Assembly: GCF_900605495.1 (NCBI RefSeq)
Contig: NZ_LR027602.1
Location: 514,456-578,455 of the forward strand
Direction of reading: 5' to 3'
DNA from: Bacilliculturomica massiliensis
GTDB lineage: Bacteria; Bacillota; Clostridia; Peptostreptococcales; Anaerovoracaceae
DNA: 64,000 nt
Every line of letters starts with the position of its first letter. Positions within the stretch are counted from its first letter, which is position 1. The notes under the pieces are model-generated. The model made no database searches. It was not told where the DNA came from and saw nothing but the letters and a program-made list of their open reading frames with translations. The position numbers were made by a program, and so were the translations under genes. This document shows, piece after piece, positions 1 to 61,109 of the stretch.

Positions 1-318
1 CTCCGGCCCGGCTTCGTTGAGTTCGCTGGCTTTGAGATCCGGCCCGGCCTCGTTGAGTTCGCTGGCTTTGAGATCCGGCCCGGCTTCGCTGAGTTCGCCA
101 GCTTCAGGCTCCGGTCCAGCTTCGCCGGGTTCGCCGGCTTCGGGCTCTCCTTTGTGAATGGCGCGTGTGTAGCATTTGCAGACGCACATTCCGCACCCGG
201 TGCAAAGCGTGGGATCGACGTGTGCGCAGCCGCCGCGGAGCGTTATGGCTCTGGCGGGACAGACCACGGCGCAGGCGCCGCAGGAGATGCACTTATTCTT
301 GTCGATGAAGACGGTCAT
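1..318 (-). CDS. 2x[4Fe-4S] ferredoxin, partial (runs off the window start), with a repetitive low-complexity C-terminal tail
   Basis: The reverse complement of 316..318 is ATG, preceded by GGAGGAA. Translation MTVFIDKNKCISCGACAVVCP...CTGCGMCVCKC carries two CxxCxxCxxxC(P) cluster motifs. The tail is built of (LNEAGPDLKASE)n repeats encoded by 39-bp tandem repeats at 1..120. The ORF is absent from the track because no stop lies inside the window. Confidence 0.7.
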   Translation of the reverse strand, partial: MTVFIDKNKCISCGACAVVCPARAITLRGGCAHVDPTLCTGCGMCVCKCYTRAIHKGEPEAGEPGEAGPEPEAGELSEAGPDLKASELNEAGPDLKASELNEAGPE

Positions 319-26330: not shown

Positions 26331-27539
26331 TCAGTCCACACGCAGCGAGTCCAGAAAATCGTCAAAGTCTTCAAAATCACTGTGGATAAACTCGTAGAGC
26401 ACAGGCTCCTTGAACTCGTATTTTGCCGTGGGCAGGATCAGAGCGTTCAGGGGGCTTTTTTGCAGCCCGATCTCCACCTCGCGGATGGCGTTAAGGGAAT
26501 AGGCCGCCACGATGAGCTGTCCGAAATCAGACACGTAGTAAAGACCGTGGATATCGTCGTTGAGACGGAATATCCTCTGGTTGACGTGGCTGTTGTTGCG
26601 GTTGAATTCCATGTAAAGACGGCCGTTTTCGTGTGAAGTCATCATGAAACCGGCGCTGTGGATGGTAAAGTCCAGATCGAAGTCGTCGGGATCGGCCAGG
26701 ATCTCGAAGACCGTAACGAATTCCGGACGTGCCAGCATCATGCTGACTTCCGCCACCGTGACGGGAAAGGCGGATTTTCTGCGGGCGCTGAGGACCAGTC
26801 CGTCCTCCGTGGTGATCTCCGACATGATGAGTTTGTACTGGGAAGAGGTCTCCACCAGCGATTCGCTGAGGTAAGAGATCTCTCCGTCCGCATTGATGAA
26901 TTCTTCAATGGTGTTTTTGCAGAGGGTACAGGGCCGGAACTCGCTGAGCTCGCCGATGTCCTCCGTTCTGGCGTTGGGCGATGTGAGAATGGACATGCCT
27001 TTGCGGTCCTTGCCAAAAGCCCGCATGAGATAATAGTGGACCAGCTGATAGTCGCTCTCGATGGGAGTACAGCACTTCCGGACCAGCAGGGTCCTCTCTT
27101 TTCTCGTGAGCGAGATCGGTTCGTCCAACAGAAAGCCGTACTCCTCACGGCCTTCCGGCAGCGGCTTGCGGAGCCGCTTCGTGTCTTCCGCGAAGCTCTG
27201 GACGAGATAGCAGGCTTCCTTTTCCGTCAGCTCCACCTTTTTGCCGCCCAGACCGCCGATGACGGATTTTTCAAGAATGGCAAGTCCGGCGCTGTCGCCG
27301 CCGGTCAGACTCTGATAATTCTCCAATCCAAACTCCTCCGCATCAAAGTAAAAAAACTGATGCAGATCGGTACAGTAGATCGTATTCGCCATTTTCCAGT
27401 GTATATAAAGACCGACCACCCCCATGAGGCGTGTGTCGGTGACAAATGCGGACACGAATTCCCGGCTGTCTCCAGGAGAGGGATTGGGATGACCTCCCTT
27501 TATCAGCTTCAGGTTTGCGCGTTCTGTCCTTTGATCCAA
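26331..27539 (-). CDS. Hypothetical protein (402 aa), probable TTG start after GGAGGAA
   Basis: Long ORF on the minus strand with a strong SD 8 nt upstream of the TTG. No recognisable domain. Acidic C-terminus (DFEDFDDFLDSLRVD). Confidence 0.55.
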   Translation of the reverse strand: MDQRTERANLKLIKGGHPNPSPGDSREFVSAFVTDTRLMGVVGLYIHWKMANTIYCTDLHQFFYFDAEEFGLENYQSLTGGDSAGLAILEKSVIGGLGGKKVELTEKEACYLVQSFAEDTKRLRKPLPEGREEYGFLLDEPISLTRKERTLLVRKCCTPIESDYQLVHYYLMRAFGKDRKGMSILTSPNARTEDIGELSEFRPCTLCKNTIEEFINADGEISYLSESLVETSSQYKLIMSEITTEDGLVLSARRKSAFPVTVAEVSMMLARPEFVTVFEILADPDDFDLDFTIHSAGFMMTSHENGRLYMEFNRNNSHVNQRIFRLNDDIHGLYYVSDFGQLIVAAYSLNAIREVEIGLQKSPLNALILPTAKYEFKEPVLYEFIHSDFEDFDDFLDSLRVD

Positions 27540-27755: not shown

Positions 27756-28640
27756 ATGAATGTAAAAAAAGTGCGGAAAGCGATCATTCCCGCGGCGGGG
27801 CTGGGAACCAGATTCCTGCCGGCGACGAAGGCGCTTCCCAAAGAAATGATCCCGATCGTGGACAAGCCCGCGATCCAGTATATCGTGGAGGAGGCGCTGG
27901 CCGCCGGCATTGAGGAGATCCTCATCGTCATCGGCAGAGACAAGGCGGCCATAGAAGACCACTTTGACAAATCCTATGAGCTGGAAAAAGATCTGGAGGA
28001 AAGAGGAAAGACCGGACTCCTGCAGGCGGTGAGCAAGATATCGGACATGGCGGACATCCATTATATCCGTCAGAAGTCGCCGCTGGGTCTGGGGCATGCG
28101 GTGAACAAGGGCCGCGTCTTCGCGGAGGGCGAGCCGGTGGCCGTGCTGCTCCCCGACGAGATCATGGATTGCCGGACCCCCTGCATCCGCCAGATGATCG
28201 ACGTGTACGAAGAGTACGCCTGCACCGTTTTGGGCGTTCTGCGCGTCCCCGAATCCGAGGTGGAAAACTACGGGATCGTGAAAGGCGAGGAACTGGAAAA
28301 GGGACTTTACCGCGTCATCGATATGGTGGAAAAGCCAAAGAGGGAAGAAGCTCCCTCCGATCTGGCCATCATTGGAAGATATGTCATCACTCCGGAGATC
28401 TTTGAGGCGCTGTCGGAGATCCGTCCGGGAGCGGGAGGCGAGCTGCAGCTGACGGACGCGCTCCGTCTGCTCCATGCAAAACAGGGCATGCTGGCCCGGA
28501 CGGTGGAGGGCAGCCGTTACGATTCCGGAAGCAAGGCGGGATTTTTGCAGGCTACTGTGGAGCTGGCCCTGAAACGCGAGGACGTAGGTCCGGAATTTCG
28601 GGCGTATCTGCGCAGGATGGCGGAGGAAGGCCGTATCTGA
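27756..28640 (+). CDS. galU: UTP--glucose-1-phosphate uridylyltransferase
   Basis: IPAAGLGTRFLPATKALPKEMIP is a canonical GalU N-terminal motif. 294 aa. Confidence 0.9.
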   Translation: MNVKKVRKAIIPAAGLGTRFLPATKALPKEMIPIVDKPAIQYIVEEALAAGIEEILIVIGRDKAAIEDHFDKSYELEKDLEERGKTGLLQAVSKISDMADIHYIRQKSPLGLGHAVNKGRVFAEGEPVAVLLPDEIMDCRTPCIRQMIDVYEEYACTVLGVLRVPESEVENYGIVKGEELEKGLYRVIDMVEKPKREEAPSDLAIIGRYVITPEIFEALSEIRPGAGGELQLTDALRLLHAKQGMLARTVEGSRYDSGSKAGFLQATVELALKREDVGPEFRAYLRRMAEEGRI

Positions 28641-28736
28641 CGGCGGCAAAAAATGAAACTGCGGCATAAAGCAATATGACGTGATAATAAGATGTGAAAC
28701 AGGCGTATCTGCGCGGGAAAGGGGAGAGAACAGGAG

Positions 28737-28907
28737 ATGGTGGTAAGAATCAGAGAAGATGTGTGCAGAGGGTGTAAAATGTGTATCCGCATCTGTCCCT
28801 CCCGGGCCATCGAGATGAAGGGCAGCACGGCCTTCATTAACGGGAAATGCACGGGATGCGGCAGCTGCGTCTCTCTGTGCCCCATGGGGGCTATCGAGAA
28901 GGAATGA
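28737..28907 (+). CDS. Small 2x[4Fe-4S] ferredoxin (56 aa). It is absent from the ORF track because it is under 60 aa
   Basis: GGGGAGAGAACAGGAG then ATG. Translation MVVRIREDVCRGCKMCIRICPSRAIEMKGSTAFINGKCTGCGSCVSLCPMGAIEKE carries two CxxCxxCxxxCP motifs. Confidence 0.7.
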   Translation: MVVRIREDVCRGCKMCIRICPSRAIEMKGSTAFINGKCTGCGSCVSLCPMGAIEKE

Positions 28908-28948
28908 GAGAACAGGCCGCCCCATGGAATAGACGGAATTATAGAAGA

Positions 28949-28996
28949 GAACGCCCGGCAAAATTTATAAACTTTGCCGGGCGTTCTCTTTTTTAT
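28949..28996 (+). terminator. Rho-independent terminator after the small ferredoxin
   Basis: gaacgcccggcaaa then atttataaac then tttgccgggcgttc, followed by tcttttttat. Confidence 0.75.
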
Positions 28997-29114
28997 GGGC
29001 AATTCAGACAGCGCCGTTCCGCCTTCGGGCGGTCTGCCGCAGCGCGTTGGCCCGTTGCTGGACGGTCTGCCGCGCAGGTCCACGGCGTTGGCCTGCTGCA
29101 CAATTTTTTTTATT

Positions 29115-29172
29115 AATACTACGGCGCCCACCGAGATCTACATTCCCTCCCTACACGACGTTCTTCCGATCT
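29115..29172 (+). other. Illumina TruSeq universal (P5) adapter-like 58-mer, probable assembly or contamination artefact
   Basis: AATACTACGGCGCCCACCGAGATCTACATTCCCTCCCTACACGACGTTCTTCCGATCT matches AATGATACGGCGACCACCGAGATCTACACTCTTTCCCTACACGACGCTCTTCCGATCT at 51 of 58 positions. It is preceded by a poly-T run and by low-complexity ggtctgccgcag repeats. Confidence 0.75.
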
Positions 29173-29251
29173 GCCGCAGCAGTCCGGCCCGCGGCGGAGG
29201 AGTTCCGGCATACGGGTCCCCGCCGGATCTCCGAATGTCCGTCTGGCCGGA

Positions 29252-30766
29252 CTATATGCCTGCCAGCAGTTCCCTTGCTTCCGCGGTCAGCGGGATCAGA
29301 TCGTCCTTGTTGACGCAGGACAGGCGGAATTTTCTGTTCAGAGCCGCAAAATGCTGCAGTCCGAATGAAATTCTGTTTAAATAAGAGTAAACGCCTATGG
29401 CGCCGGTGGAGAACTCCGAGGCTTCTTTTCCGTAGAGATACCGCAGATCGGGGATATCGGCGAAGATCTCTTCAACGGAAGCGCCGAAGGATCGGAACAT
29501 GGGCGGGATCTCACCTGACCGGATCCGGCTGCCGATGCTTTTGCCGGTCATGGCCGCCGCCATGGAAGAACGGCACAGACCCACCGCCGCGATCTCTCCG
29601 TCCCCCAGGGCCAGCGCCTTATAGACCTGATCTTCCATGGAAAATCCGCCGGTAATGACCAGGGCGGGCAGTTGGAGCCCCTCTTTTTTCAATCTTTTCG
29701 CGATGCGCACCACCGTCGTTTCCAGCATGACGGCGGGCTGTCCCCATTCGTTCATCATTTTGCAGGGGCTGTACCCGCTGCCGCCGCCGGCTCCGTCAAA
29801 GGTGACCATATCCGCCTTTACGGAGGCGGCGATGCGTATGACGCGCTCCACGTCGGCGGAGTCGTACCCGGCCATCTTGAAATACACATTCTTCAGCCCC
29901 GCCCTGCGCAGGTCGGCGATGCGCCCGCTGAGATAGTCTTCATCCCACAGAGGAAGTCTGTCGTAGGAGTAGAAATTGGGGCACACATCCCGCCGGCAGG
30001 CGTCCTGGATCTCAGGGGAGGAGGGATCGGGATGCACCAGCACGCCTTCGGAGCGTTTTCGGAGAGCTTCCTCATAACCGCCCCTGAGCAGATGGGCGGG
30101 CTGCGTGCCTTTGGCAGACTGGCCGAATTTGAATTCGATGCCCTCTACATTGTGCGCGGTCACGGCGTATTCCGGCAGGCCGCAGAGATCGTCCTCCACA
30201 TTGCACTGCAGGATGATCTGGCCGTAGCCCCGATCGTATTTGCGGAAGGAATCTAAAATCTGTTTCAAAAAGGGAAAGCCGGTGATCTTTCCGTCCTGGT
30301 AGACAGCGTCGGGATCCTTGCTGCGGGAACCCTCTCCGATCACGCAGCTGACTCCTGCCATGGCCGCCCCGCCGAAGTAGTCCTGCCAATTGAGCTTGAT
30401 CAGGGCGGGAAGAATGATGGGAAGAGCCATTTTGACCGGATGGGTCTTGCCGTAGGTGACGCCCAGATCTACGTTGAATATCTGTGCCTGCTCATAGACC
30501 GGGGGAACGCCTTCGGCCCCGAAGACCCGTCCGTTGATGTTGAAAATGGAGTAATCGATGGGATAGTTCTTTTCTGACGCCACCTGATTGGAACCTGTGG
30601 TGGTGGGATAGACGGCCTGAGCGCCGAGTACTGCGGAAAGAGCTATCTCGCAGGTGCCGGGACATTCCTCCGTACAGAAGGAGCACATACCGGAGAGCGG
30701 CGATATCTGTTTACTGCGGTTCACGGTGTTGTTGAAGGCGGAGCCCAGACTGGGTGTAAAGGACAT
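29252..30766 (-). CDS. Glutamate synthase domain-2-like FMN-binding protein (GltB-related)
   Basis: Start at MSFTPSLG after AAGGAGGTAATAAA. N-terminal Cys cluster CSFCTEECPGTC and GltS FMN-domain-like sequence. 504 aa. Confidence 0.7.
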   Translation of the reverse strand: MSFTPSLGSAFNNTVNRSKQISPLSGMCSFCTEECPGTCEIALSAVLGAQAVYPTTTGSNQVASEKNYPIDYSIFNINGRVFGAEGVPPVYEQAQIFNVDLGVTYGKTHPVKMALPIILPALIKLNWQDYFGGAAMAGVSCVIGEGSRSKDPDAVYQDGKITGFPFLKQILDSFRKYDRGYGQIILQCNVEDDLCGLPEYAVTAHNVEGIEFKFGQSAKGTQPAHLLRGGYEEALRKRSEGVLVHPDPSSPEIQDACRRDVCPNFYSYDRLPLWDEDYLSGRIADLRRAGLKNVYFKMAGYDSADVERVIRIAASVKADMVTFDGAGGGSGYSPCKMMNEWGQPAVMLETTVVRIAKRLKKEGLQLPALVITGGFSMEDQVYKALALGDGEIAAVGLCRSSMAAAMTGKSIGSRIRSGEIPPMFRSFGASVEEIFADIPDLRYLYGKEASEFSTGAIGVYSYLNRISFGLQHFAALNRKFRLSCVNKDDLIPLTAEARELLAGI

Positions 30767-31171: not shown

Positions 31172-31220
31172 GATCTGTTCTGCCGGTGATCTTTTTTGCC
31201 GGTGATCTTTTTTGCCGGTC
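31172..31220 (+). repeat. 16-bp tandem repeat (tgccggtgatcttttt), about 2.5 copies, just downstream of the flotillin stop
   Basis: ctgccggtgatcttttttgccggtgatcttttttgccggtcatc. Confidence 0.7.
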
Positions 31221-39852: not shown

Positions 39853-40971
39853 TTGCTAATGAATGAATCTTCCTTTGTATTTGAAGTGATCGATCAAACG
39901 ATCGCGGTCGGAGAGCCCCCGCTTTGTGTGTCAGAACTGTGCCGGATCGCAGGGGTATCCAGAAGCGGCTATTACGCCTGGGTAAAAGCGGCTCCGATCC
40001 GGGAACGGCGAGAGGCAGCGGATCGCAGAGCGTTCGATCAGATTCTTGGCGCTTACAAGATGCATGGCTACACCAAGGGGGCCCGCGGCATCCATATGGC
40101 GCTGCTGCATCAGGATCCACCCGTCGTCATGAATCAGAAGAAGATCCGCCGCTTGATGAACAAGTACAACCTGTCGTGTCCGATCAGGAAGGCGAATCCC
40201 TATCGGCGGATGGCCAGGGCGCTGAAGACGGACAACGTTGCGGAGAACTTACTCCGGCGTGAATTTGAATGCTATGGACCGAGGACGGTGCTGCTGACGG
40301 ATATCACGTACCTGCCTTACAACGGGACATTTGCTTACCTGTCGACCATTCTGGATGCCTTTACGAAAGAGATCCTGTCGTACGTAGTGAGCGAATCGCT
40401 GGAAATGGACTTCGTTTTGGAGACAGTAAAACAGCTTGTTGATCGGCATGGCATCGCGCTCACCGCCGAGACGATCGTTCATAGTGATCAAGGGTGCCAT
40501 TATACCAGCCACTGCTTTATCAACCTCCTGACGGATAAGCAGCTGCGGCGTTCGATGTCGCGGAAGGGCAATTGCTGGGATAATGCGCCACAGGAAAGCT
40601 TCTTTGGCCATATGAAGGATCACATCAAGGAAAAACTGGGTGAGTGCAAGGAATGGAAGGACGTAAAGGCGGTGGTGGACGAATACATGGATTATTACAA
40701 CAACCGGCGATACCAGTGGGATCTGGCAAAGCTTTCACCAACCGAGTTCTATGAATTTTGTACGACGGGAATGTATCCATTAAACATTCCCAACAAACCG
40801 GCTGTGCCAGCTGCGCACAAACCGGTTTGCGAATTGGGAGCGGAAGCGGAGCCAGGAAACAGCACGCCTGGCTGTGCAGTCGGACAGCCTTGCACAAAAG
40901 GAACAGGCGTCAGTTCCAGCTTCCCTGCGAAGGACAATGCAAAGGATAACGATCAAAGAAAGAGCACCTGA
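39853..40971 (+). CDS. IS3-family transposase OrfB (integrase/DDE core). It is probably expressed as an OrfAB fusion by -1 frameshifting
   Basis: rve-domain motifs HSDQGCHYTS and CWDNAPQESFFGHMK. orfA is in frame 2 and orfB in frame 1, so a -1 shift at the A8 run would fuse them. Confidence 0.8.
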   Translation: MLMNESSFVFEVIDQTIAVGEPPLCVSELCRIAGVSRSGYYAWVKAAPIRERREAADRRAFDQILGAYKMHGYTKGARGIHMALLHQDPPVVMNQKKIRRLMNKYNLSCPIRKANPYRRMARALKTDNVAENLLRREFECYGPRTVLLTDITYLPYNGTFAYLSTILDAFTKEILSYVVSESLEMDFVLETVKQLVDRHGIALTAETIVHSDQGCHYTSHCFINLLTDKQLRRSMSRKGNCWDNAPQESFFGHMKDHIKEKLGECKEWKDVKAVVDEYMDYYNNRRYQWDLAKLSPTEFYEFCTTGMYPLNIPNKPAVPAAHKPVCELGAEAEPGNSTPGCAVGQPCTKGTGVSSSFPAKDNAKDNDQRKST

Positions 40972-41092
40972 ACATGCTGTCCATGATTCAGGGCACACAA
41001 AAAGCAACTGTCTAACATGCAGGTTTATCCAAACCTTGATTCCATAAAATAGGGAAATCAAAAATTGATATTGTCCTTGACATGGGGTACCA

Positions 41093-41185
41093 TTCATATT
41101 CACCTATTTCGCGGCAGATATTGAGGGGATATCGCTGATTTCCGAGGGGATTTCGGTGATATTCATTTTTTTTTGCTGTTTTCAC
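41093..41185 (+). repeat. Right portion of the interrupted intergenic repeat
   Basis: gaggggatatcgctgatttccgaggggatttcggtgatattcatttttttttgctgttttcacctat is homologous to 55525..55590 (gtgatttccaattttttttgctgttttcgcctac). Confidence 0.6.
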
Positions 41186-41425
41186 CTATCCTCTGTGCGC
41201 CGCCCGTCCCCGTCCTCAGCCAGTTCACGCGCCGCCTGATGGTCGCGCCGAGTGCGGATGCCCGCGCCGGCCGATGCGCTCCCAACTGACAGCCCTGCCG
41301 CAAAAGAGTCGAAAGTTAATGTGACGTTGCGGCCGCAGTAAAGCGCTGTGGGACATATCTTTTCCTTTTGGGATAAGGCCGCCTGGCGACTGAGGGACGG
41401 CCAACCGAGATACGACTGACGAGAT

Positions 41426-53458: not shown

Positions 53459-53610
53459 CCGGTTCGGGATGAGAGGGCTGACCAGAGCGGCGCTCTGAAA
53501 ACAGAAACGAACAATTGAATAACAGCCGGACAAAGGCCGTCCGTTTCTTTCTGCTGGAAGGCAGGAAGACAGGGACGGAGGCGTTTGCCCGGCTTTTTCT
53601 TTTTCTGTGC

Positions 53611-53790
53611 TGCTCTTGTCCTGCTTTTGTCCTGCTCTTGTCCTGCTCTTGTCCTGCTTTTGTCCTGCTTTTGTCCTGCTTTTGTCTTGTATTCGCCCTG
53701 TATTCGCCCTCGCCCTGTTTTCGTCCTGCTACCGTCCTGTTTCCCTCCTGCTTTCGTCCTGTTTTCATCCTGTTTTCATCCTGTGGTTCC
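53611..53790 (+). repeat. 11-bp tandem repeat array (cctgctYttgt, 7 near-perfect copies) followed by degenerate related repeats
   Basis: Within tgctcttgtcctgcttttgtcctgctcttgtcctgctcttgtcctgcttttgtcctgcttttgtcctgcttttgtc the gtcctg motif recurs at an 11-bp period. This is followed by ...tattcgccctgtattcgccct...cgtcctg...catcctg. No unique spacers, so it is not a CRISPR array. Confidence 0.8.
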
Positions 53791-55000: not shown

Positions 55001-55439
55001 TTAGGGGCTGGGGCTTAAGGGCGGCGCCATAAATAAGCGATCTGATTTATATACATAGATCCGTGACGGCAAACTGCATAGAGCGTCCTTTCCGGCTTGA
55101 AAGCGCCGGAAGGGGCGCTGATTTTTTTACGCCGTTTTTCACAGACTGTTCTGCAGCAGGTCTCCGGCTCCGCGGTTTTGCACTTGCAGCGAGTTTGTCC
55201 GCCATTCGCTGCGGTCCGGGGGCGGCTGTGGGGTCTGGCCCCCCTCTCCCGGTAAGTAGTGGGCTTCCGATGGATTGGGGCTTGCGGTTGGATGTTGGGT
55301 CCCGGCGGATTGTGATCTTGTGGTCGGCTGATGGTCTCCAGCGGAGGGATGTCGGTCTCCGGGGCTGCGGATCTCTGGCGGAGGAGCGTCGGTCTCCGAG
55401 GGCTGTTGATTTACGGCGTAATGAGCAATTACTAGATAT

Positions 55440-55590
55440 TTTTTTCTGTTTCACCGAAAAAGAGCTTCCAAATAGGCGATAGTTAATTTTTTTTTGAGAT
55501 TTTGCATATTTTGCAGTAAATATGGTGGGATTATCGCTAATAATCGCGTGTATTTGGGTGATTTCCAATTTTTTTTGCTGTTTTCGCCTA
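55440..55590 (+). repeat. Uninterrupted copy of the roughly 150-bp intergenic repeat family whose other copy (39221..39309 and 41093..41185) carries the IS3 insertion
   Basis: tttcaccgaaaaagagcttccaaataggcgatagttaattttttttt...ggtgggattatcgctaataatcgcgtgtatttgggtgatttccaattttttttgctgttttcgcctac is colinear with both flanks of the IS. Confidence 0.6.
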
Positions 55591-56349
55591 CGCCGACGCC
55601 GGGAGACCGGACAGCGCGTCCATGTCGGCGCAAGGGATCCGTCCGCCAGTTCAGCCCATGCCGTCGGGAGAGCCGCCAGCGGGCTCGTATCATCGCCGAA
55701 CGTCCCAACATCCAGACTGAGTCCACGCTGCGCAAGCGATCTGCCCGCCAGTTCAGCCCATGCCGCCAGCCGGCCTGTTTCCGGAAAAGCGGCAGTCATC
55801 CTGGGCCTGGGCTCTGTGCGGCTGCGGCCGCGGCAAAGTACCTACAGAGCCATCCTGCGAGGCCTTGCATGTGACTGATCCGAATAACGATCTGAATAAC
55901 CATCTGTATAACCATCTGTATAACGATCAGTATGACAGTCCGTATAACGGCCTGTATGACGATCGGGCAACGATCAATTGGGATATGATCAAATAAACAC
56001 TATGACCGTGGAGGGGACCTTCTGCAGAGCTTTATTCCGCAGAAGGTCCTGTTTGCATCTCCTGCCATTTTGATAAAAAGCAAAGGGGACGAGATTATCA
56101 AAATGATAAAGAGGAGGAGTTTTATCGGTTAAAATCCTGAATAACAGCCGCGGTTTGTCGAAATTCGCCGAAACATTGGGAAAACGTCTATCAAATTGAT
56201 ATAAAATCCTTTTCTGTGCTTATCAATATGATAAAATGAATGGAAACAAAAAAATGAAACGTTGAAATCTCAATGTTTTTGACTTGGCATGATTTATGCT
56301 TCCATATGATATCATCGGACTAATCTGCTTTATTAACAGGAGGAAAGAA

Positions 56350-57756
56350 ATGGACAACAAATTGACAAAGCGACAGTGGAAGGTTCCGCATACGTATGTC
56401 ATCATCATGGCCTTTGTGATCTTCATGGCGATCATGACGTATGTGATCCCCGCCGGGGAGTACGGCACGTATATGGACGAGGTTACCGAGCGCGAACTGG
56501 TAGATCCGCAGAGCTTTACGTATGTAGAGAATCAGCCGGTATCGCTGATGCAGGTGCTGACCTCGATCACGGCGGGCATGCAGGGCGTGGCGGACGTGAT
56601 CTTTTTCGTATTTATCATCGGAGGATCTATGGAGATCCTGTACGCCACCGGAGCGATCCACAGGGGAGTCGACAGCGTGGCGAAGAATAAGCTCATGGGC
56701 AGGTGGTTTATTCCGATCTTCGCGTTCATTTTTGCGCTGGGCGGCGCGACCTTCGGCGTCTCTGATGAGATCGTGATCTTCGCGCCTCTGGGGGTGGCAC
56801 TGGCCCACGCCATGGGTTACGATGCCATCACAGGACTTGCCACCATTGCCCTGGGCGCCGCGGTGGGCTTTAACGCCGGATTTATGAATCCCTTCTCCAC
56901 CAGCATCGCCCAATCCATCGCCCAGCTGCCGATTTTTTCCGGAATCGAGCTGCGGCTGATCGTATTTGTCGTTTTGTTTGTTGTGACGGTCGGTTACATT
57001 ATGCGTTACGCCAAGAAGATCAAGAACAATCCGGAATTGTCCATCGTGAGAGACTGTCTCTGCGAGACGGACAGAAGGGATCTCAGCGTGGAGACGCTGG
57101 AAGGCGCAGGGGGCAGGGACAAGCTGATCCTGCTGGTGCTCTGCGGCGGCATCCTGATCATGGTGTACGGCGTATTCAACTGGGATTGGTATATCGATGA
57201 GATGGCGGGCGTGTTCGTGGCGATCGGCATCATCAGCGGCTTCATCGGCCGCATGGGACCCAGCCGCATGGCTGAAGCGTTTGTCGAAGGTTCAAAATCG
57301 CTGGCGTTTGGAGCGCTGGTCACCGGTTTCGCCAAGGCGATTCTCATCATCATGGAAGACGGCATGATCCTGGATTCCATCATCCATGGACTGGGCAACG
57401 CGGTAATGGCTCTGCCCACGGCGATCGCGGCACTGGGCATGTATGCGATCCAGATCGTCATCAATTTCTTCATTCCCTCGTCCACGGGTCAGGCGGCCAC
57501 CGTTATGCCGATCATGATCCCGCTGGCTGACATCGTGGGGGTAACGCGTCAGACGGCGGTACTGGCCTTCCAGTTCGGCGACGGTTTCAGCAATTCCATC
57601 ATCCCCACGTCTTCCGTCCTGATGACGTATCTGGCGGCTGCGCGTATCCCCTATGAAAAATGGGTGAAATTCATCTGGCCGCTGATGCTGATCTGGATCG
57701 GTATCGGCGCTATATTCCTGATGGTCGCCACGGCTATCAACTACGGTCCGTTCTAA
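56350..57756 (+). CDS. YfcC/DcuC-like (C4-dicarboxylate anaerobic carrier family) transporter
   Basis: Start at MDNKLTKRQW after AACAGGAGGAAAGAA. Polytopic membrane protein, 468 aa. Confidence 0.75.
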   Translation: MDNKLTKRQWKVPHTYVIIMAFVIFMAIMTYVIPAGEYGTYMDEVTERELVDPQSFTYVENQPVSLMQVLTSITAGMQGVADVIFFVFIIGGSMEILYATGAIHRGVDSVAKNKLMGRWFIPIFAFIFALGGATFGVSDEIVIFAPLGVALAHAMGYDAITGLATIALGAAVGFNAGFMNPFSTSIAQSIAQLPIFSGIELRLIVFVVLFVVTVGYIMRYAKKIKNNPELSIVRDCLCETDRRDLSVETLEGAGGRDKLILLVLCGGILIMVYGVFNWDWYIDEMAGVFVAIGIISGFIGRMGPSRMAEAFVEGSKSLAFGALVTGFAKAILIIMEDGMILDSIIHGLGNAVMALPTAIAALGMYAIQIVINFFIPSSTGQAATVMPIMIPLADIVGVTRQTAVLAFQFGDGFSNSIIPTSSVLMTYLAAARIPYEKWVKFIWPLMLIWIGIGAIFLMVATAINYGPF

Positions 57757-57997
57757 GGATCATTCCGCATTTCGATGCGGACGTCAGGCGGCACGCCGGG
57801 GCGGGAAGACCGCAGCCCGGTGGGAACTGTCATGAATGGGGCCGCCTGTCTGAGCATCAGGTCTGCAGGACTGCAGGACCGCGGCCTGATCGCAGCGAGA
57901 CTGTTACGGAAACGGCCGCCTGCCGGGGCGGCGGAGTGGGAAGGGTGGAACGCGCCTGACCGATATGAAATAAGAAAACAATAAAGGAGTTATCGCA

Positions 57998-59096: not shown

Positions 59097-59840
59097 GTGG
59101 CGGAATTAATGGAAATCAGGGATTATGTGTGGACGACGGCCAAGGTGATCGGGTCCGTTCTGAAAAAGGAAGTCGTGATCTGCGACAGCCGCATGTATAT
59201 CGTGGGAGACAGCAAATATGACTCCTACGCAGACATGAAGAAGAACACGGTGACCAACGACGCGATTCTGCGGACGGCCATGCAGAATCGGGAAGTTCTG
59301 ACCATCAACAACGTAAAAGAGGAAGCGGAGGGCTGCAGCACCTGTGAAAATCTGGAATGGTGTGACATTAACTCGATCATCGCCTTTCCTATCATAAAGG
59401 ACGATGTGGTCATCGGCTGCATCGGGCTGTATTCCGACGACGCAGGATTTCAGGCAGGCGTCACGGAGGAGGGACGCTTTCTCATCGATTTTATCTGGAG
59501 GATGTCGGAGCTGCTCATCAGCAAGCTGGAAGAAAAGAACGAGAATCTGGAGCTGAAGGCGCTTCAGAAACGGTTGTCCAGCATGATCGAGCATCTGGAT
59601 ACGGCAGTTGCCGGCATCGACGGAAAAGGGCGCATCATTCACACGAATTCTAAGTTTTGGGAAATATTTGGCGGGGAGGGAGAGCCTTCTGGATCGTTCG
59701 GGCAGACCGCTTCGGGAGGATCCGCGGCGGCGCGGCGCCGGAGCACGGGCTCCCAGAATCCGCGCTGTCTCTTATGCACCTCTGGCTGTGTATCAGAGAC
59801 AGCTTTCTTAACAGGTGGACAGACATGGCCAACACATTGA
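59097..59840 (+). pseudogene. N-terminal sensor (GAF/PAS-like) portion of a sigma-54-dependent activator. The C-terminal roughly 90 codons appear frame-disrupted
   Basis: The ORF is in the same frame (mod 3) as the downstream AAA+ ORF but is separated from it by two in-frame stops (TGA at 59838..59840 and about 59865). PAS-like fragments (GRESLLDRSGRPL and others) appear in the other two frames at 59640..59930. Confidence 0.45.
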
Positions 59841-59930
59841 CAACTGAGCAGGGGAAGGTGAGACCGCGCCGGGAAACGGACGGCAGGGCCGGGCGAACCG
59901 CAGGCGGCGGGCTCGGAGGAACGGCAGGCG

Positions 59931-61109
59931 GTGCGGCCCCTTGAATCGCTGAAACCTCTGCGGGACTGTCCGGAGTTTCTGGCGTTATTGCAGGATAAGA
60001 CGGAAGGCGACGCGGAGAAAGAACTGCAGTTTCTGGTAGGACGGAAAAAGATCAACGTCATCGTTACGGTCAATCACATCGAGATCGACGGCGTGCCCGC
60101 GGGGACGATGGTGTATTTCAAAAACACGTCCAAGCTGTATGAAGAGATCAACCGCGTGTCCAACAGCTATACAAGAGTGACCTTCGACGATGTGATCGGA
60201 AACAGCCAGATCATCCGGGACCTGAAAGAGAAAGCCGAGATCTTTTCCAAGAGTTCCTCTACGATCCTCATACAGGGTGAGAGCGGGACGGGGAAGGAGA
60301 TCTTTTCCCGGGCCATTCACAGCGCCAGCAGCAGGTGCGACGGTCCCTTCGTGGCGGTGAACTGCGCGGCCATACCGGACAATCTGCTGGAAAGCGAACT
60401 GTTTGGCTATGAGGAAGGGGCGTTTACGGGAGCAGCTAAGGGCGGCCGCATCGGAAAGTTTCAGCTGGCGAACAACGGCACGCTGTTTCTCGACGAGGTG
60501 GGAGAGATGCCTATTCATCTGCAGGTGAAGCTGCTGCGGGCCATCCAGGAGAAGAAGATCCAGAAGATCGGCGGAAGCCGGGACATCGATATCAATATCC
60601 GCATTATCGCGGCCACGAATAAGGATCTGGAGCGCATGATCGAGAGCGGCGAATTCAGGGAAGATCTGTTTTACCGTCTCAACGTCATACCGGTGACGCT
60701 GCCCGCGCTGCGGGAGCGCCGGTCGGATATTCCGGTCCTGCTCACGTATTTTTTGGACAAGTTCAACGACGTGCTGGAAAAAAACATCAGAGGCCTGGAC
60801 CGGGAAGCCCAGCGGCTGTTTTATACCTATGACTGGCCGGGAAACATCCGGGAACTTCAGAACACGGTGGAATACTGTGTCAACATGGCGGAGGGGCCCT
60901 ATATCAGACCGGAGGACCTGCCCCGGCGCGTGACACAGCCGAAGAATCACCTGCACCGGGAGGATATCCGGCCCCTGCGGGAGATCGAACAATTTTACAT
61001 CCAGGGAGCGGTCAGCGTCTTCGGGGACACCTACGAGGGAAAAGAGGAGGCGGCGCGGGCCTTGGGCATCGGCATCGCCACGCTGTACCGAAAGCTGAAA
61101 AACAGCTGA
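59931..61109 (+). CDS. Sigma-54-dependent transcriptional activator, AAA+ and HTH portion (bEBP)
   Basis: Walker A GESGTGKE, the GAFTGA motif ([12 protein letters not shown]), an arginine finger region and a C-terminal Fis-type HTH ([16 protein letters not shown]). Starts at GTG. Confidence 0.8.

What the first reader, a model, noticed from the sequence alone, without database searches (positions are those of the whole stretch)
28990..29250. Illumina TruSeq universal adapter-like sequence embedded in the contig, a likely chimeric or contaminated assembly region
29115..29172 matches the 58-nt P5 universal adapter at 51 of 58 positions, including the 3' ...CTCTTCCGATCT end. It is preceded by a poly-T stretch and by low-complexity ggtctgccgcag repeats, and no credible gene covers the interval. 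The flanking genes (small ferredoxin and terminator on the left, GltS-like gene on the right) are intact, so this looks like foreign technical sequence incorporated at a join. Synteny across this point should not be trusted.
Basis: partly seen in the sequence, partly recalled or inferred. Interest (0 to 1): 0.7.

Follow-up and report, generated by a model that had tools for sequence, protein, structure and literature searches.

The report
Sequencing adapter left by gap filling
The adapter-like stretch is real laboratory sequence, an error-ridden Illumina adapter with its flow-cell poly-T tail, pasted into a tiny assembly gap in the Bacilliculturomica massiliensis reference genome; the genes on either side are correctly joined, so this is an ordinary assembly artefact and not biology.

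Summary
Window 29115-29172 matches the 58-nt TruSeq universal adapter at 51/58 (shuffled and background maxima 34 and 31). It is preceded by T8ATT, which matches the T10 flow-cell linker.

The sequence is technical, but this is not a chimeric join. Five independent assemblies of the same species (99.6-99.8% identical) have the same GalU-ferredoxin-GltS gene order and the same flanks, including the 'low-complexity' GGTCTGCCGC repeats. None has the adapter. The window simply replaces 16 native nt with an 84-nt patch (29101-29184).

A second patch (59761-59860) shows where both came from. It holds a diverged Nextera mate-pair junction adapter (33/38), followed by a 46/58 copy of window 56327-56384, which lies 3.4 kb upstream on the same strand. 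That is the expected layout of a circularised mate-pair read. This patch splits a regulator that is intact (639/640 aa) elsewhere into two RefSeq proteins.

Both patches sit in the most GC-rich 100-nt stretches of the region (78% and 76% GC). They carry about 16% substitution-only errors. The source laboratory's standard pipeline used Nextera mate-pair MiSeq reads, sometimes untrimmed, plus GapCloser.

Verdict: a gap-closure artefact of low biological interest, with some value for database curation.

The parts
28944..28995 (+). Native terminator-like hairpin with a T-run downstream of the ferredoxin gene. It is not part of the artefact.
   Evidence: Inverted repeat I1. RNA fold dG -34.4 kcal/mol, z -7.4. 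Conserved in all independent assemblies.
28996..29100 (.). Native GC-rich intergenic spacer with GG(G/A)CGGTCTGCCGC repeats. It is genuine genome sequence.
   Evidence: Identical or near-identical in 5 independent assemblies. Repeats D1-D3.
29101..29103 (.). CAA: three junk bases at the join between the left contig edge and the filler read.
   Evidence: Absent from all independent assemblies.
29104..29114 (+). T8ATT: relic of the poly-T spacer that tethers the P5 oligo to the flow cell, with one miscall.
   Evidence: In 80 public poly-T+P5 loci the T-run length peaks at 10, and 68 of 82 copies lie at contig ends with the poly-T outermost.
29115..29172 (+). Diverged TruSeq universal (P5 plus read-1 primer) adapter: 51/58, 7 substitutions, no indels.
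   Evidence: The minus-strand translation RSEERRVGRECRSRWAP compares with the canonical RSEERRVGKECRSRWSPYH.
29173..29184 (.). GCCGCAGCAGTC: an error-laden version of native GCCGCCGC, the end of the same low-quality filler read. Native sequence resumes at 29185.
   Evidence: BLAST and MAFFT alignments to L001 and L002.
59761..59764 (+). CGCG where all other assemblies have AGAG: two A>C miscalls at the start of the second patch.
59765..59802 (+). Diverged Nextera mate-pair junction (circularisation) adapter, ME-rc plus ME, 33/38.
   Evidence: next best 22/38, shuffled maximum 24. The arms are closer to the synthetic ME (17 and 16 of 19) than to natural Tn5 OE or IE (12-14 of 19). The identity of the 38-mer is given in PMC7357533.
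59802..59859 (+). Misplaced, error-laden copy (46/58, ungapped) of window 56327-56384. This is the far end of a 3,438-bp circularised mate-pair fragment.
   Evidence: next best 31/58, shuffled maximum 34.
56327..56384 (+). True genomic origin of the misplaced tail, upstream of and at the start of the DcuC/YfcC-family gene.
59097..59840 (+). N-terminal fragment of the PAS/sigma-54 regulator, truncated by patch 2. It is annotated as WP_165445292.1 (247 aa). Its last residues, RCLLCTSGCVSETAFLTGGQTWPTH, are translated from the adapter and the misplaced tail.
59931..61109 (+). C-terminal fragment of the same regulator, annotated as WP_130862661.1 (392 aa).
   Evidence: The gene is intact at 639/640 aa in ERZ21883246 and GCA_902363245.1.

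Best explanation
The window comes from the NCBI assembly of Bacilliculturomica massiliensis (an 862,596-bp scaffold). At two extremely GC-rich spots Illumina coverage failed, which left small gaps between contigs that are truly adjacent. A gap-closing or tip-joining step then bridged each gap with single, untrimmed, low-quality reads from a Nextera mate-pair library.

At site 1 the filler was a minus-strand read. It ran off a short insert, through the TruSeq universal adapter, and into the T10 spacer of the flow-cell oligo. This gave the patch 29101-29184, which replaces 16 native nt.

At site 2 the filler was a read that crossed the circularisation junction. It carried the junction adapter plus sequence from 3.4 kb upstream. 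This gave the patch 59761-59860, which replaces about 7 native nt and splits a gene.

Shown: the adapter identities, the absence of both patches from independent assemblies, the intact synteny, the mate-pair geometry, the substitution-only errors of about 16%, the GC extremes, and the source organism. Inferred: that coverage dropped out, that single low-quality reads were used, and which program made the join. GapCloser is the leading candidate because it is in the laboratory's published pipeline.
For: 1. Adapter identity: 51/58 against a shuffled maximum of 34.
2. The poly-T directly 5' of P5 matches the flow-cell-tethered oligo. In public contigs the T-run peaks at 10 nt, and most copies are at contig ends with the poly-T outermost.
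3. Five independent assemblies lack the patch and agree on both flanks.
4. Site 2: junction adapter 33/38, followed by a 46/58 copy of sequence 3,438 bp upstream on the same strand. The order is fragment end, then junction, then fragment start, as circularisation predicts. The patch is absent from four independent assemblies.
5. One library type explains both adapters. Nextera mate-pair libraries are tagmented with junction adapters, circularised and sheared, and then ligated to TruSeq adapters (PMC6298255). The 38-mer is the circularisation adapter (PMC7357533).
6. Errors: 24 substitutions in 154 nt whose true sequence is known, 11 of them A>C, and no indels. The adjoining flanks differ from other strains by only 0.2-1%.
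7. The native sites are 78% and 76% GC per 100 nt, at the 100th and 99.9th percentile of the window.
8. Source: the window's proteins are exact WP_ entries of B. massiliensis on an 862,596-bp contig. The same laboratory's standard methods for strains with neighbouring numbers were MiSeq Nextera Mate Pair, fragments of 1.5-11 kb, assembly of trimmed or untrimmed reads, GapCloser on every assembly, and selection by fewest scaffolds and fewest Ns (PMC6154776). 58 papers hold at least 4 of the 5 search terms for this pipeline.
9. The VecScreen-parameter score is only 23, so the relic would pass routine screening.
Against: No raw reads were available, so the coverage dropout and single-read support are not shown directly. 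The genome methods for strain Marseille-P3303 itself are not published in the papers I could read (PMC5537403 reports only the 16S gene), so the pipeline is inferred from the laboratory's standard wording. An error rate of about 16% is high even for MiSeq read ends. A 4-nt extra AGTC at 29181-29184 is an indel-type difference beside the adapter; it could be strain variation or a further error. About half of the window (1-21.7 kb and 34.7-52.4 kb) could not be compared with independent assemblies.
Confidence: 0.88

Rival explanations
1. One reading: the adapter marks a chimeric join between two contigs that are not neighbours in the genome, or a contaminant fragment, so synteny across it is false.
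For: Adapters do often mark contig ends. 68 of 82 public poly-T+P5 copies are terminal.
Against: Five independent assemblies from different read sets have GalU, ferredoxin and the Glu_synthase-family gene in the same order and orientation, with identical spacer sequence on both sides of the patch. The flanks are 99.6-99.8% identical to them over 5-13 kb.
Confidence: 0.02
2. The artefact is the same, but the primary assembler or scaffolder made it rather than a dedicated gap closer. Examples are SPAdes tip extension into adapter read-through followed by its internal gap closing, or SSPACE-type contig extension.
For: The sequence alone cannot tell which program joined the pieces. The laboratory's pipeline usually chose the SPAdes assembly. 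Internal poly-T+P5 blocks also occur in metagenome-derived viral contigs that were probably never gap-closed (14 of 82).
Against: The pipeline text says GapCloser was run on every assembly and that assemblies were ranked by number of Ns. Error-laden unique k-mers are normally pruned by de Bruijn assemblers.
Confidence: 0.1
3. The adapter-like block is physically present in the strain's chromosome, either as a natural sequence that happens to resemble the adapter or as integrated synthetic DNA.
For: None beyond its presence in the deposited assembly.
Against: By my knowledge of the chemistry, the poly-T spacer exists only on the flow-cell-bound oligo and never in free library DNA, yet it is attached in the correct position. 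The block is absent from 5 near-identical assemblies. The exact diverged sequence is absent from JGI metagenome contigs. The replacement is not clean: 16 nt are lost and there is no target duplication. A second relic in the same window has mate-pair geometry.
Confidence: 0.005
4. The second relic (59765-59802) is a natural Tn5/IS50-type inverted-repeat remnant, not a library adapter.
For: The mosaic end derives from Tn5 ends, so some resemblance is expected.
Against: The arms match the synthetic mosaic end at 17 and 16 of 19, against 12-14 of 19 for the natural OE and IE. The arms abut head-to-head with no element between them. There is no 9-bp target duplication. The block is absent from four independent assemblies and interrupts a conserved ORF. 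It is followed by a copy of sequence from 3.4 kb upstream.
Confidence: 0.005

Closest known systems
Illumina TruSeq universal adapter read-through contamination in assemblies, including the flow-cell T10 spacer
   Same: The same 58-nt sequence in the same orientation relative to a 5' poly-T run. Like 14 of 82 public copies, it lies inside a contig. Its reverse-strand translation is the familiar spurious peptide RSEERRVGKECRSRWSPYH.
   Different: It has 7 substitutions (12%), whereas the public copies were found by exact match. It sits between two correctly ordered native flanks and not at a contig end. It scores only 23 with VecScreen parameters, so it escapes routine screening.
Nextera mate-pair junction adapter (CTGTCTCTTATACACATCT+AGATGTGTATAAGAGACAG) left in untrimmed reads, the problem that tools such as NxTrim address
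   Same: Site 2 has the head-to-head ME pair. The fragment-end sequence is on its left and the fragment-start sequence (3,438 bp upstream, same strand) is on its right (PMC7357533, PMC6298255). Exact copies also occur in 7 public viral-contig stretches.
   Different: It is diverged (33/38) and embedded in a finished scaffold, where it splits a gene into two RefSeq proteins.
Gap-closer misfills (SOAPdenovo GapCloser and similar)
   Same: There are small patches private to this assembly at GC-rich contig boundaries. They replace a few native bases with longer wrong sequence, in an assembly from a pipeline that ran GapCloser and selected for fewest Ns.
   Different: Which program was responsible is inferred, not demonstrated.
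Chimeric contig misjoin
   Same: Technical sequence lies at a point where two assembly pieces meet.
   Different: The two pieces are true neighbours, and synteny is confirmed in five independent assemblies.

Membership tests
Illumina TruSeq universal adapter contamination | Near-full-length match to the 58-nt adapter, far above chance | tested here: met
   51/58 ungapped. Background maximum 31, shuffled maximum 34. E 1.4e-13.
Illumina TruSeq universal adapter contamination | Poly-T (T10 flow-cell spacer) directly 5' of the P5 end, the mark of read-through to the tethered oligo | tested here: met
   T8ATT at 29104-29114. The public copies have a T-run mode of 10. That the flow-cell oligo carries a T10 spacer is from my own knowledge.
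Illumina TruSeq universal adapter contamination | Absent from independent assemblies of the same locus | tested here: met
   0 of 5 assemblies carry it. The exact diverged string has 0 hits in JGI metagenome contigs.
Illumina TruSeq universal adapter contamination | Read support collapses or is soft-clipped over the block | not testable with these tools
   No access to raw reads.
Nextera mate-pair junction read incorporated in the assembly (site 2) | ME-rc+ME 38-mer | tested here: met
   33/38 at 59765-59802. Next best 22, shuffled maximum 24.
Nextera mate-pair junction read incorporated in the assembly (site 2) | The sequences flanking the junction come from the two ends of one kb-scale fragment, on the same strand, with the fragment end before the fragment start | tested here: met
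   Left flank native up to 59760. Right flank 46/58 to 56327-56384 on the + strand. Implied fragment 3,438 bp, within the 1.5-11 kb range of the laboratory's libraries.
Nextera mate-pair junction read incorporated in the assembly (site 2) | Absent from independent assemblies | tested here: met
   0 of 4 assemblies carry it, and the regulator is intact at 639/640 aa.
   The flanks are adjacent and collinear in 5 assemblies.
Natural transposon or insertion sequence remnant | Ends match natural element termini, with a target-site duplication and a clean insertion | tested here: not met
   Closer to the synthetic ME than to natural OE or IE. No duplication, and native bases are replaced instead.
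GapCloser misfill | The patch appears at the gap-closing step of the pipeline | not testable with these tools
   Only circumstantial: the laboratory's pipeline text and the location at GC extremes.

The most novel reading that the evidence does not exclude
The two relics may be typical examples of a hidden class of contamination. These would be error-laden adapter and junction-adapter gap fills that fall below VecScreen-type thresholds (score 23 here). They could be spread through the many type-strain genomes made with the same mate-pair, untrimmed-read and GapCloser pipeline. There they would silently create split genes and RefSeq/UniRef proteins with adapter-encoded tails, as WP_165445292.1 shows. 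I regard the reading that the block is physically present in the chromosome as practically excluded, by the flow-cell poly-T and by the mate-pair geometry.
Probability: 0.5. Interest if true: 0.3.

Novelty: not a real feature. Interest (0 to 1): 0.12.

Why it matters
Biologically it does not matter, because there is no element here. Practically it has three consequences.

1. Only 84 nt need to be replaced by the native 16-mer.

2. The same process damaged a real gene 30 kb away. A 639/640-aa PAS/sigma-54 regulator appears in RefSeq and UniRef as two proteins, and one of them has a tail encoded by adapter sequence.

3. The diverged relics escape standard adapter screens. This is the only named genome of an effectively published genus, and the species appears to be missing or masked in the species-representative collection I searched. 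Such patches can therefore carry over into comparative and protein-family analyses.

Tried and rejected
1. Rfam scan of 28600-29400 at E<=1: only sub-threshold hairpin hits on the terminator and nothing on the adapter interval.

2. Scan of species-representative genomes for a conserved left-flank 41-mer: 0 hits. A protein-based scan with the GltS-like protein gave relatives at no more than 67% identity, so there were no orthologous spacers to compare. The source species appears absent or masked there.

3. JGI metagenome scans for the exact diverged adapter and for the native junction: both 0 hits.

4. Exact-protein look-ups for five longer window proteins found no gene on record. As a result, 1-21.7 kb and 34.7-52.4 kb could not be compared with independent assemblies.

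5. I asked whether 55250-55950 and 53600-53700 were further junk patches. I rejected this: they are tandem-repeat copy-number differences, and the independent strains also differ from each other there.

6. I asked whether the 76% ungapped similarity between 55507-55590 and 41105-41188 was another mate-pair relic. I rejected this because the 55.5-kb copy is present in the other strains. It is probably a shared regulatory region.

7. The simple terminator scanner missed the long native hairpin. It reported instead a 'terminator' at 29083-29098, which is created by the inserted poly-T and is itself an artefact.

8. Natural Tn5 ends as the origin of the palindrome: rejected.

Full report
OBSERVATION

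Window 29115-29172 reads AATACTACGGCGCCCACCGAGATCTACATTCCCTCCCTACACGACGTTCTTCCGATCT. It matches the 58-nt TruSeq universal adapter at 51 of 58 positions without gaps. The best ungapped match elsewhere in the 64-kb window, on either strand, is 31/58. Across 300 shuffles of the adapter the mean best match is 30.2 and the maximum is 34. The blastn-short E-value is 1.4e-13. Directly 5' of the match lies T8ATT (29104-29114). On the minus strand the block translates to RSEERRVGRECRSRWAP. The canonical adapter gives RSEERRVGKECRSRWSPYH.

IS IT A CHIMERIC JOIN?

No. The exact GalU protein of the window (27756-28640) and the exact 56-aa ferredoxin (28737-28907) occur on contigs from five independent read sets: Logan ERR2221283, SRR30937730, SRR30937704 and SRR27389708, and ENA ERZ21883246. 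All of them show GalU, then the ferredoxin, then a convergent Glu_synthase-family gene. The two longer contigs are 99.6-99.8% identical to the window up to position 29100 and 99.0-99.4% identical from 29167/29184 onward.

The alignments show three things. First, the terminator hairpin and the GC-rich spacer with its GG(G/A)CGGTCTGCCGC repeats are native and conserved. Second, four assemblies have GGGCGTTCTGCCGCCG (16 nt) between ...GGCCTGCTGCA and CCGGCCCGCGG..., and the fifth has a natural deletion of the variable segment. Third, the window alone has 84 nt there (29101-29184): CAA, T8ATT, the adapter, then GCCGCAGCAGTC, which is a garbled form of the native GCCGCCGC.

The two flanks are therefore true neighbours, and only a local patch is wrong. 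The exact diverged adapter string is absent from JGI metagenome contigs.

THE POLY-T

To my knowledge the P5 and P7 oligos are tethered to the flow cell by a T10 spacer. I tested this reading. The pattern T8+P5 occurs in 112 stretches of IMG/VR contigs. In the 80 loci returned, 68 of 82 copies lie within 150 nt of a contig end with the poly-T outermost, and 14 are internal. The T-run length has a sharp mode at 10 (27 copies). That pattern is what read-through to the physical end of a tethered molecule predicts.

It also means the filler read ran on the minus strand: native sequence, then the reverse-complemented adapter, then poly-A. A poly-T spacer is never part of free library DNA. This argues against a chimeric library molecule and against a real genomic insertion.

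A SECOND RELIC SHOWS THE LIBRARY TYPE

Scanning the window for other adapters found 59765-59802, CTGTCTCTTATgCACcTCTggcTGTGTATcAGAGACAG. It matches the 38-nt head-to-head mosaic-end pair at 33/38 (next best 22, shuffled maximum 24). Its arms match the synthetic mosaic end at 17 and 16 of 19, better than the natural Tn5 OE or IE at 12-14 of 19. That 38-mer is the circularisation ('ring'/junction) adapter of roughly 4-kb mate-pair libraries (PMC7357533).

The 58 nt that follow it (59802-59859) align without gaps at 46/58 to window 56327-56384 on the same strand. The next best match is 31 and the shuffled maximum is 34. Native sequence up to about 59760, then the junction, then sequence from 3,438 bp upstream on the same strand, is exactly the order a circularised fragment gives: fragment end, junction, fragment start.

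Nextera mate-pair libraries are tagmented with junction adapters, circularised and sheared, and then ligated to TruSeq adapters (PMC6298255). One library therefore explains both relics.

Four independent assemblies (GCA_902363245.1, ERZ21883246, ERZ28576369, ERR2221283) read CAGAATC-AGAGGGA-AGACCGCG straight through this site. They encode an intact 639/640-aa PAS/sigma-54 regulator. In the window the 100-nt patch (59761-59860) splits that gene.

ERROR SIGNATURE AND LOCATION

There are 154 nt whose true sequence is known: the adapter, the junction and the tail. In these there are 24 substitutions (15.6%), 11 of them A>C, and no indels. The CGCG at 59761-59764, where the native sequence is AGAG, adds two more A>C changes. 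The immediately adjacent flanks differ from other strains by only 0.2-1%. A sharp step from under 1% to about 16%, made up of substitutions only, points to low-quality Illumina base calls. It does not fit evolutionary divergence or long-read errors.

The native sequence at the two sites is 78% and 76% GC per 100 nt. These values are at the 100th and 99.9th percentile of all 100-nt windows here. Such stretches are where Illumina coverage typically fails and contigs break. That last step is an inference.

SOURCE

Exact look-ups identify the window's proteins as RefSeq entries of Bacilliculturomica massiliensis on an 862,596-bp contig. They are WP_130862635.1, WP_130862637.1, WP_130862658.1, WP_130862659.1 and WP_130862662.1. 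The taxonomy is Clostridia, Anaerovoracaceae.

The species description reports only the 16S gene (PMC5537403). The same laboratory's standard genome methods, given for strains with neighbouring collection numbers, are these: MiSeq with the Nextera Mate Pair kit; fragments of 1.5-11 kb without size selection; circularisation and shearing; 2x151 or 2x251 reads; assembly with Velvet, SPAdes and SOAPdenovo on trimmed or untrimmed data; GapCloser on each assembly; and choice of the best assembly by number of scaffolds, N50 and number of Ns (PMC6154776). 58 papers hold at least 4 of the 5 search terms for this pipeline. That pipeline supplies every ingredient the sequence evidence calls for. Its use for this particular strain is inferred, not documented.

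MECHANISM

Shown: both patches are technical sequence private to this assembly, they lie between correctly ordered native flanks, and they derive from a mate-pair library.

Inferred: coverage gaps at the GC-rich spots left two scaffolded contig pairs separated by Ns. A gap closer or tip joiner then filled each gap with a single untrimmed, low-quality read and joined it on minimal overlap. At site 1 the adapter's ...CGATCT end merges into native ...CGTTCT. At site 2 the tail's GGAAGGT meets native GGGAAGA.

Why it survived: with VecScreen parameters the adapter scores only 23. By my recollection of the VecScreen categories that is a 'weak' internal match. The junction gave no hit at all. Exact adapters would have been flagged, so only error-laden copies get through.

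CONSEQUENCES

Site 1 is intergenic and harmless. The one side effect is a spurious terminator-like call at 29083-29098, created by the inserted poly-T.

Site 2 has propagated into the protein databases. WP_165445292.1 (247 aa, 'PAS domain-containing protein') ends in RCLLCTSGCVSETAFLTGGQTWPTH, which is translated from the junction adapter and the misplaced tail. WP_130862661.1 (392 aa) is the other half of the gene.

OTHER DIFFERENCES CHECKED

About 30 kb of the window can be compared with independent assemblies. The only other indels there are tandem-repeat copy-number changes and 1-4-nt differences. These are ordinary strain variation.

VERDICT

The adapter observation is correct. The 'chimeric join, do not trust synteny' interpretation is wrong. 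This is a gap-closure artefact, not a biological feature. It has low scientific interest and modest value for curating this reference genome and others from the same pipeline.

Noticed in passing
window 59761-59860: Second technical patch: a diverged Nextera mate-pair junction adapter (33/38) followed by a 46/58 copy of 56327-56384. It is absent from four independent assemblies and splits a 639/640-aa PAS/sigma-54 regulator into WP_165445292.1 (adapter-encoded C-terminus) and WP_130862661.1.
   Followed up: yes
window 57764-57946: Seven window-private substitutions in about 190 nt of a GC-rich spacer between the DcuC/YfcC-family gene and the URO-D-family gene. The other four assemblies agree with each other at those positions. 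This could be low-coverage consensus error or real strain variation.
   Followed up: partly
window 55507-55590 and 41105-41188: An ungapped 76% similarity between two intergenic regions 14 kb apart, sharing TATCGCT...GGTGAT...TTTTTTTTGCTGTTTTC.CCTA. The 55.5-kb copy is present in other strains, so it is native. It may be a shared promoter or regulator-binding region.
   Followed up: partly
window 53613-53690, 55350-55950 and 31185-31203: Hypervariable intergenic tandem repeats (an 11-nt unit CTTTTGTCCTG, units of about 33-35 nt, a 12-13-nt unit ACCATCTGTATAA, and a 16-nt duplication) whose copy number differs among strains.
   Followed up: partly
L088 (ENA ERZ21883246) versus window 29100-29245: One strain naturally lacks the roughly 145-nt GC-rich part of the ferredoxin/GltS spacer (GGCCTGCTGC joined directly to CGGACTATATGCC), so this spacer is dispensable and variable.
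   Followed up: no
window 40928-41096: The first 169 nt of contig CABIZN010000024.1 (GCA_902363245.1) match this stretch at 100% in reverse orientation. It lies next to another very GC-rich spot (41000-41200). This suggests a repeat or a contig-end overlap where that other assembly broke.
   Followed up: no
window 26331-27539 (minus strand): A 402-aa ORF conserved in the independent assemblies, with no Pfam family on record.
   Followed up: no
window 2-140: A diverged tandem duplication with a period of about 72 nt (79% identity) at the very start of the window.
   Followed up: no
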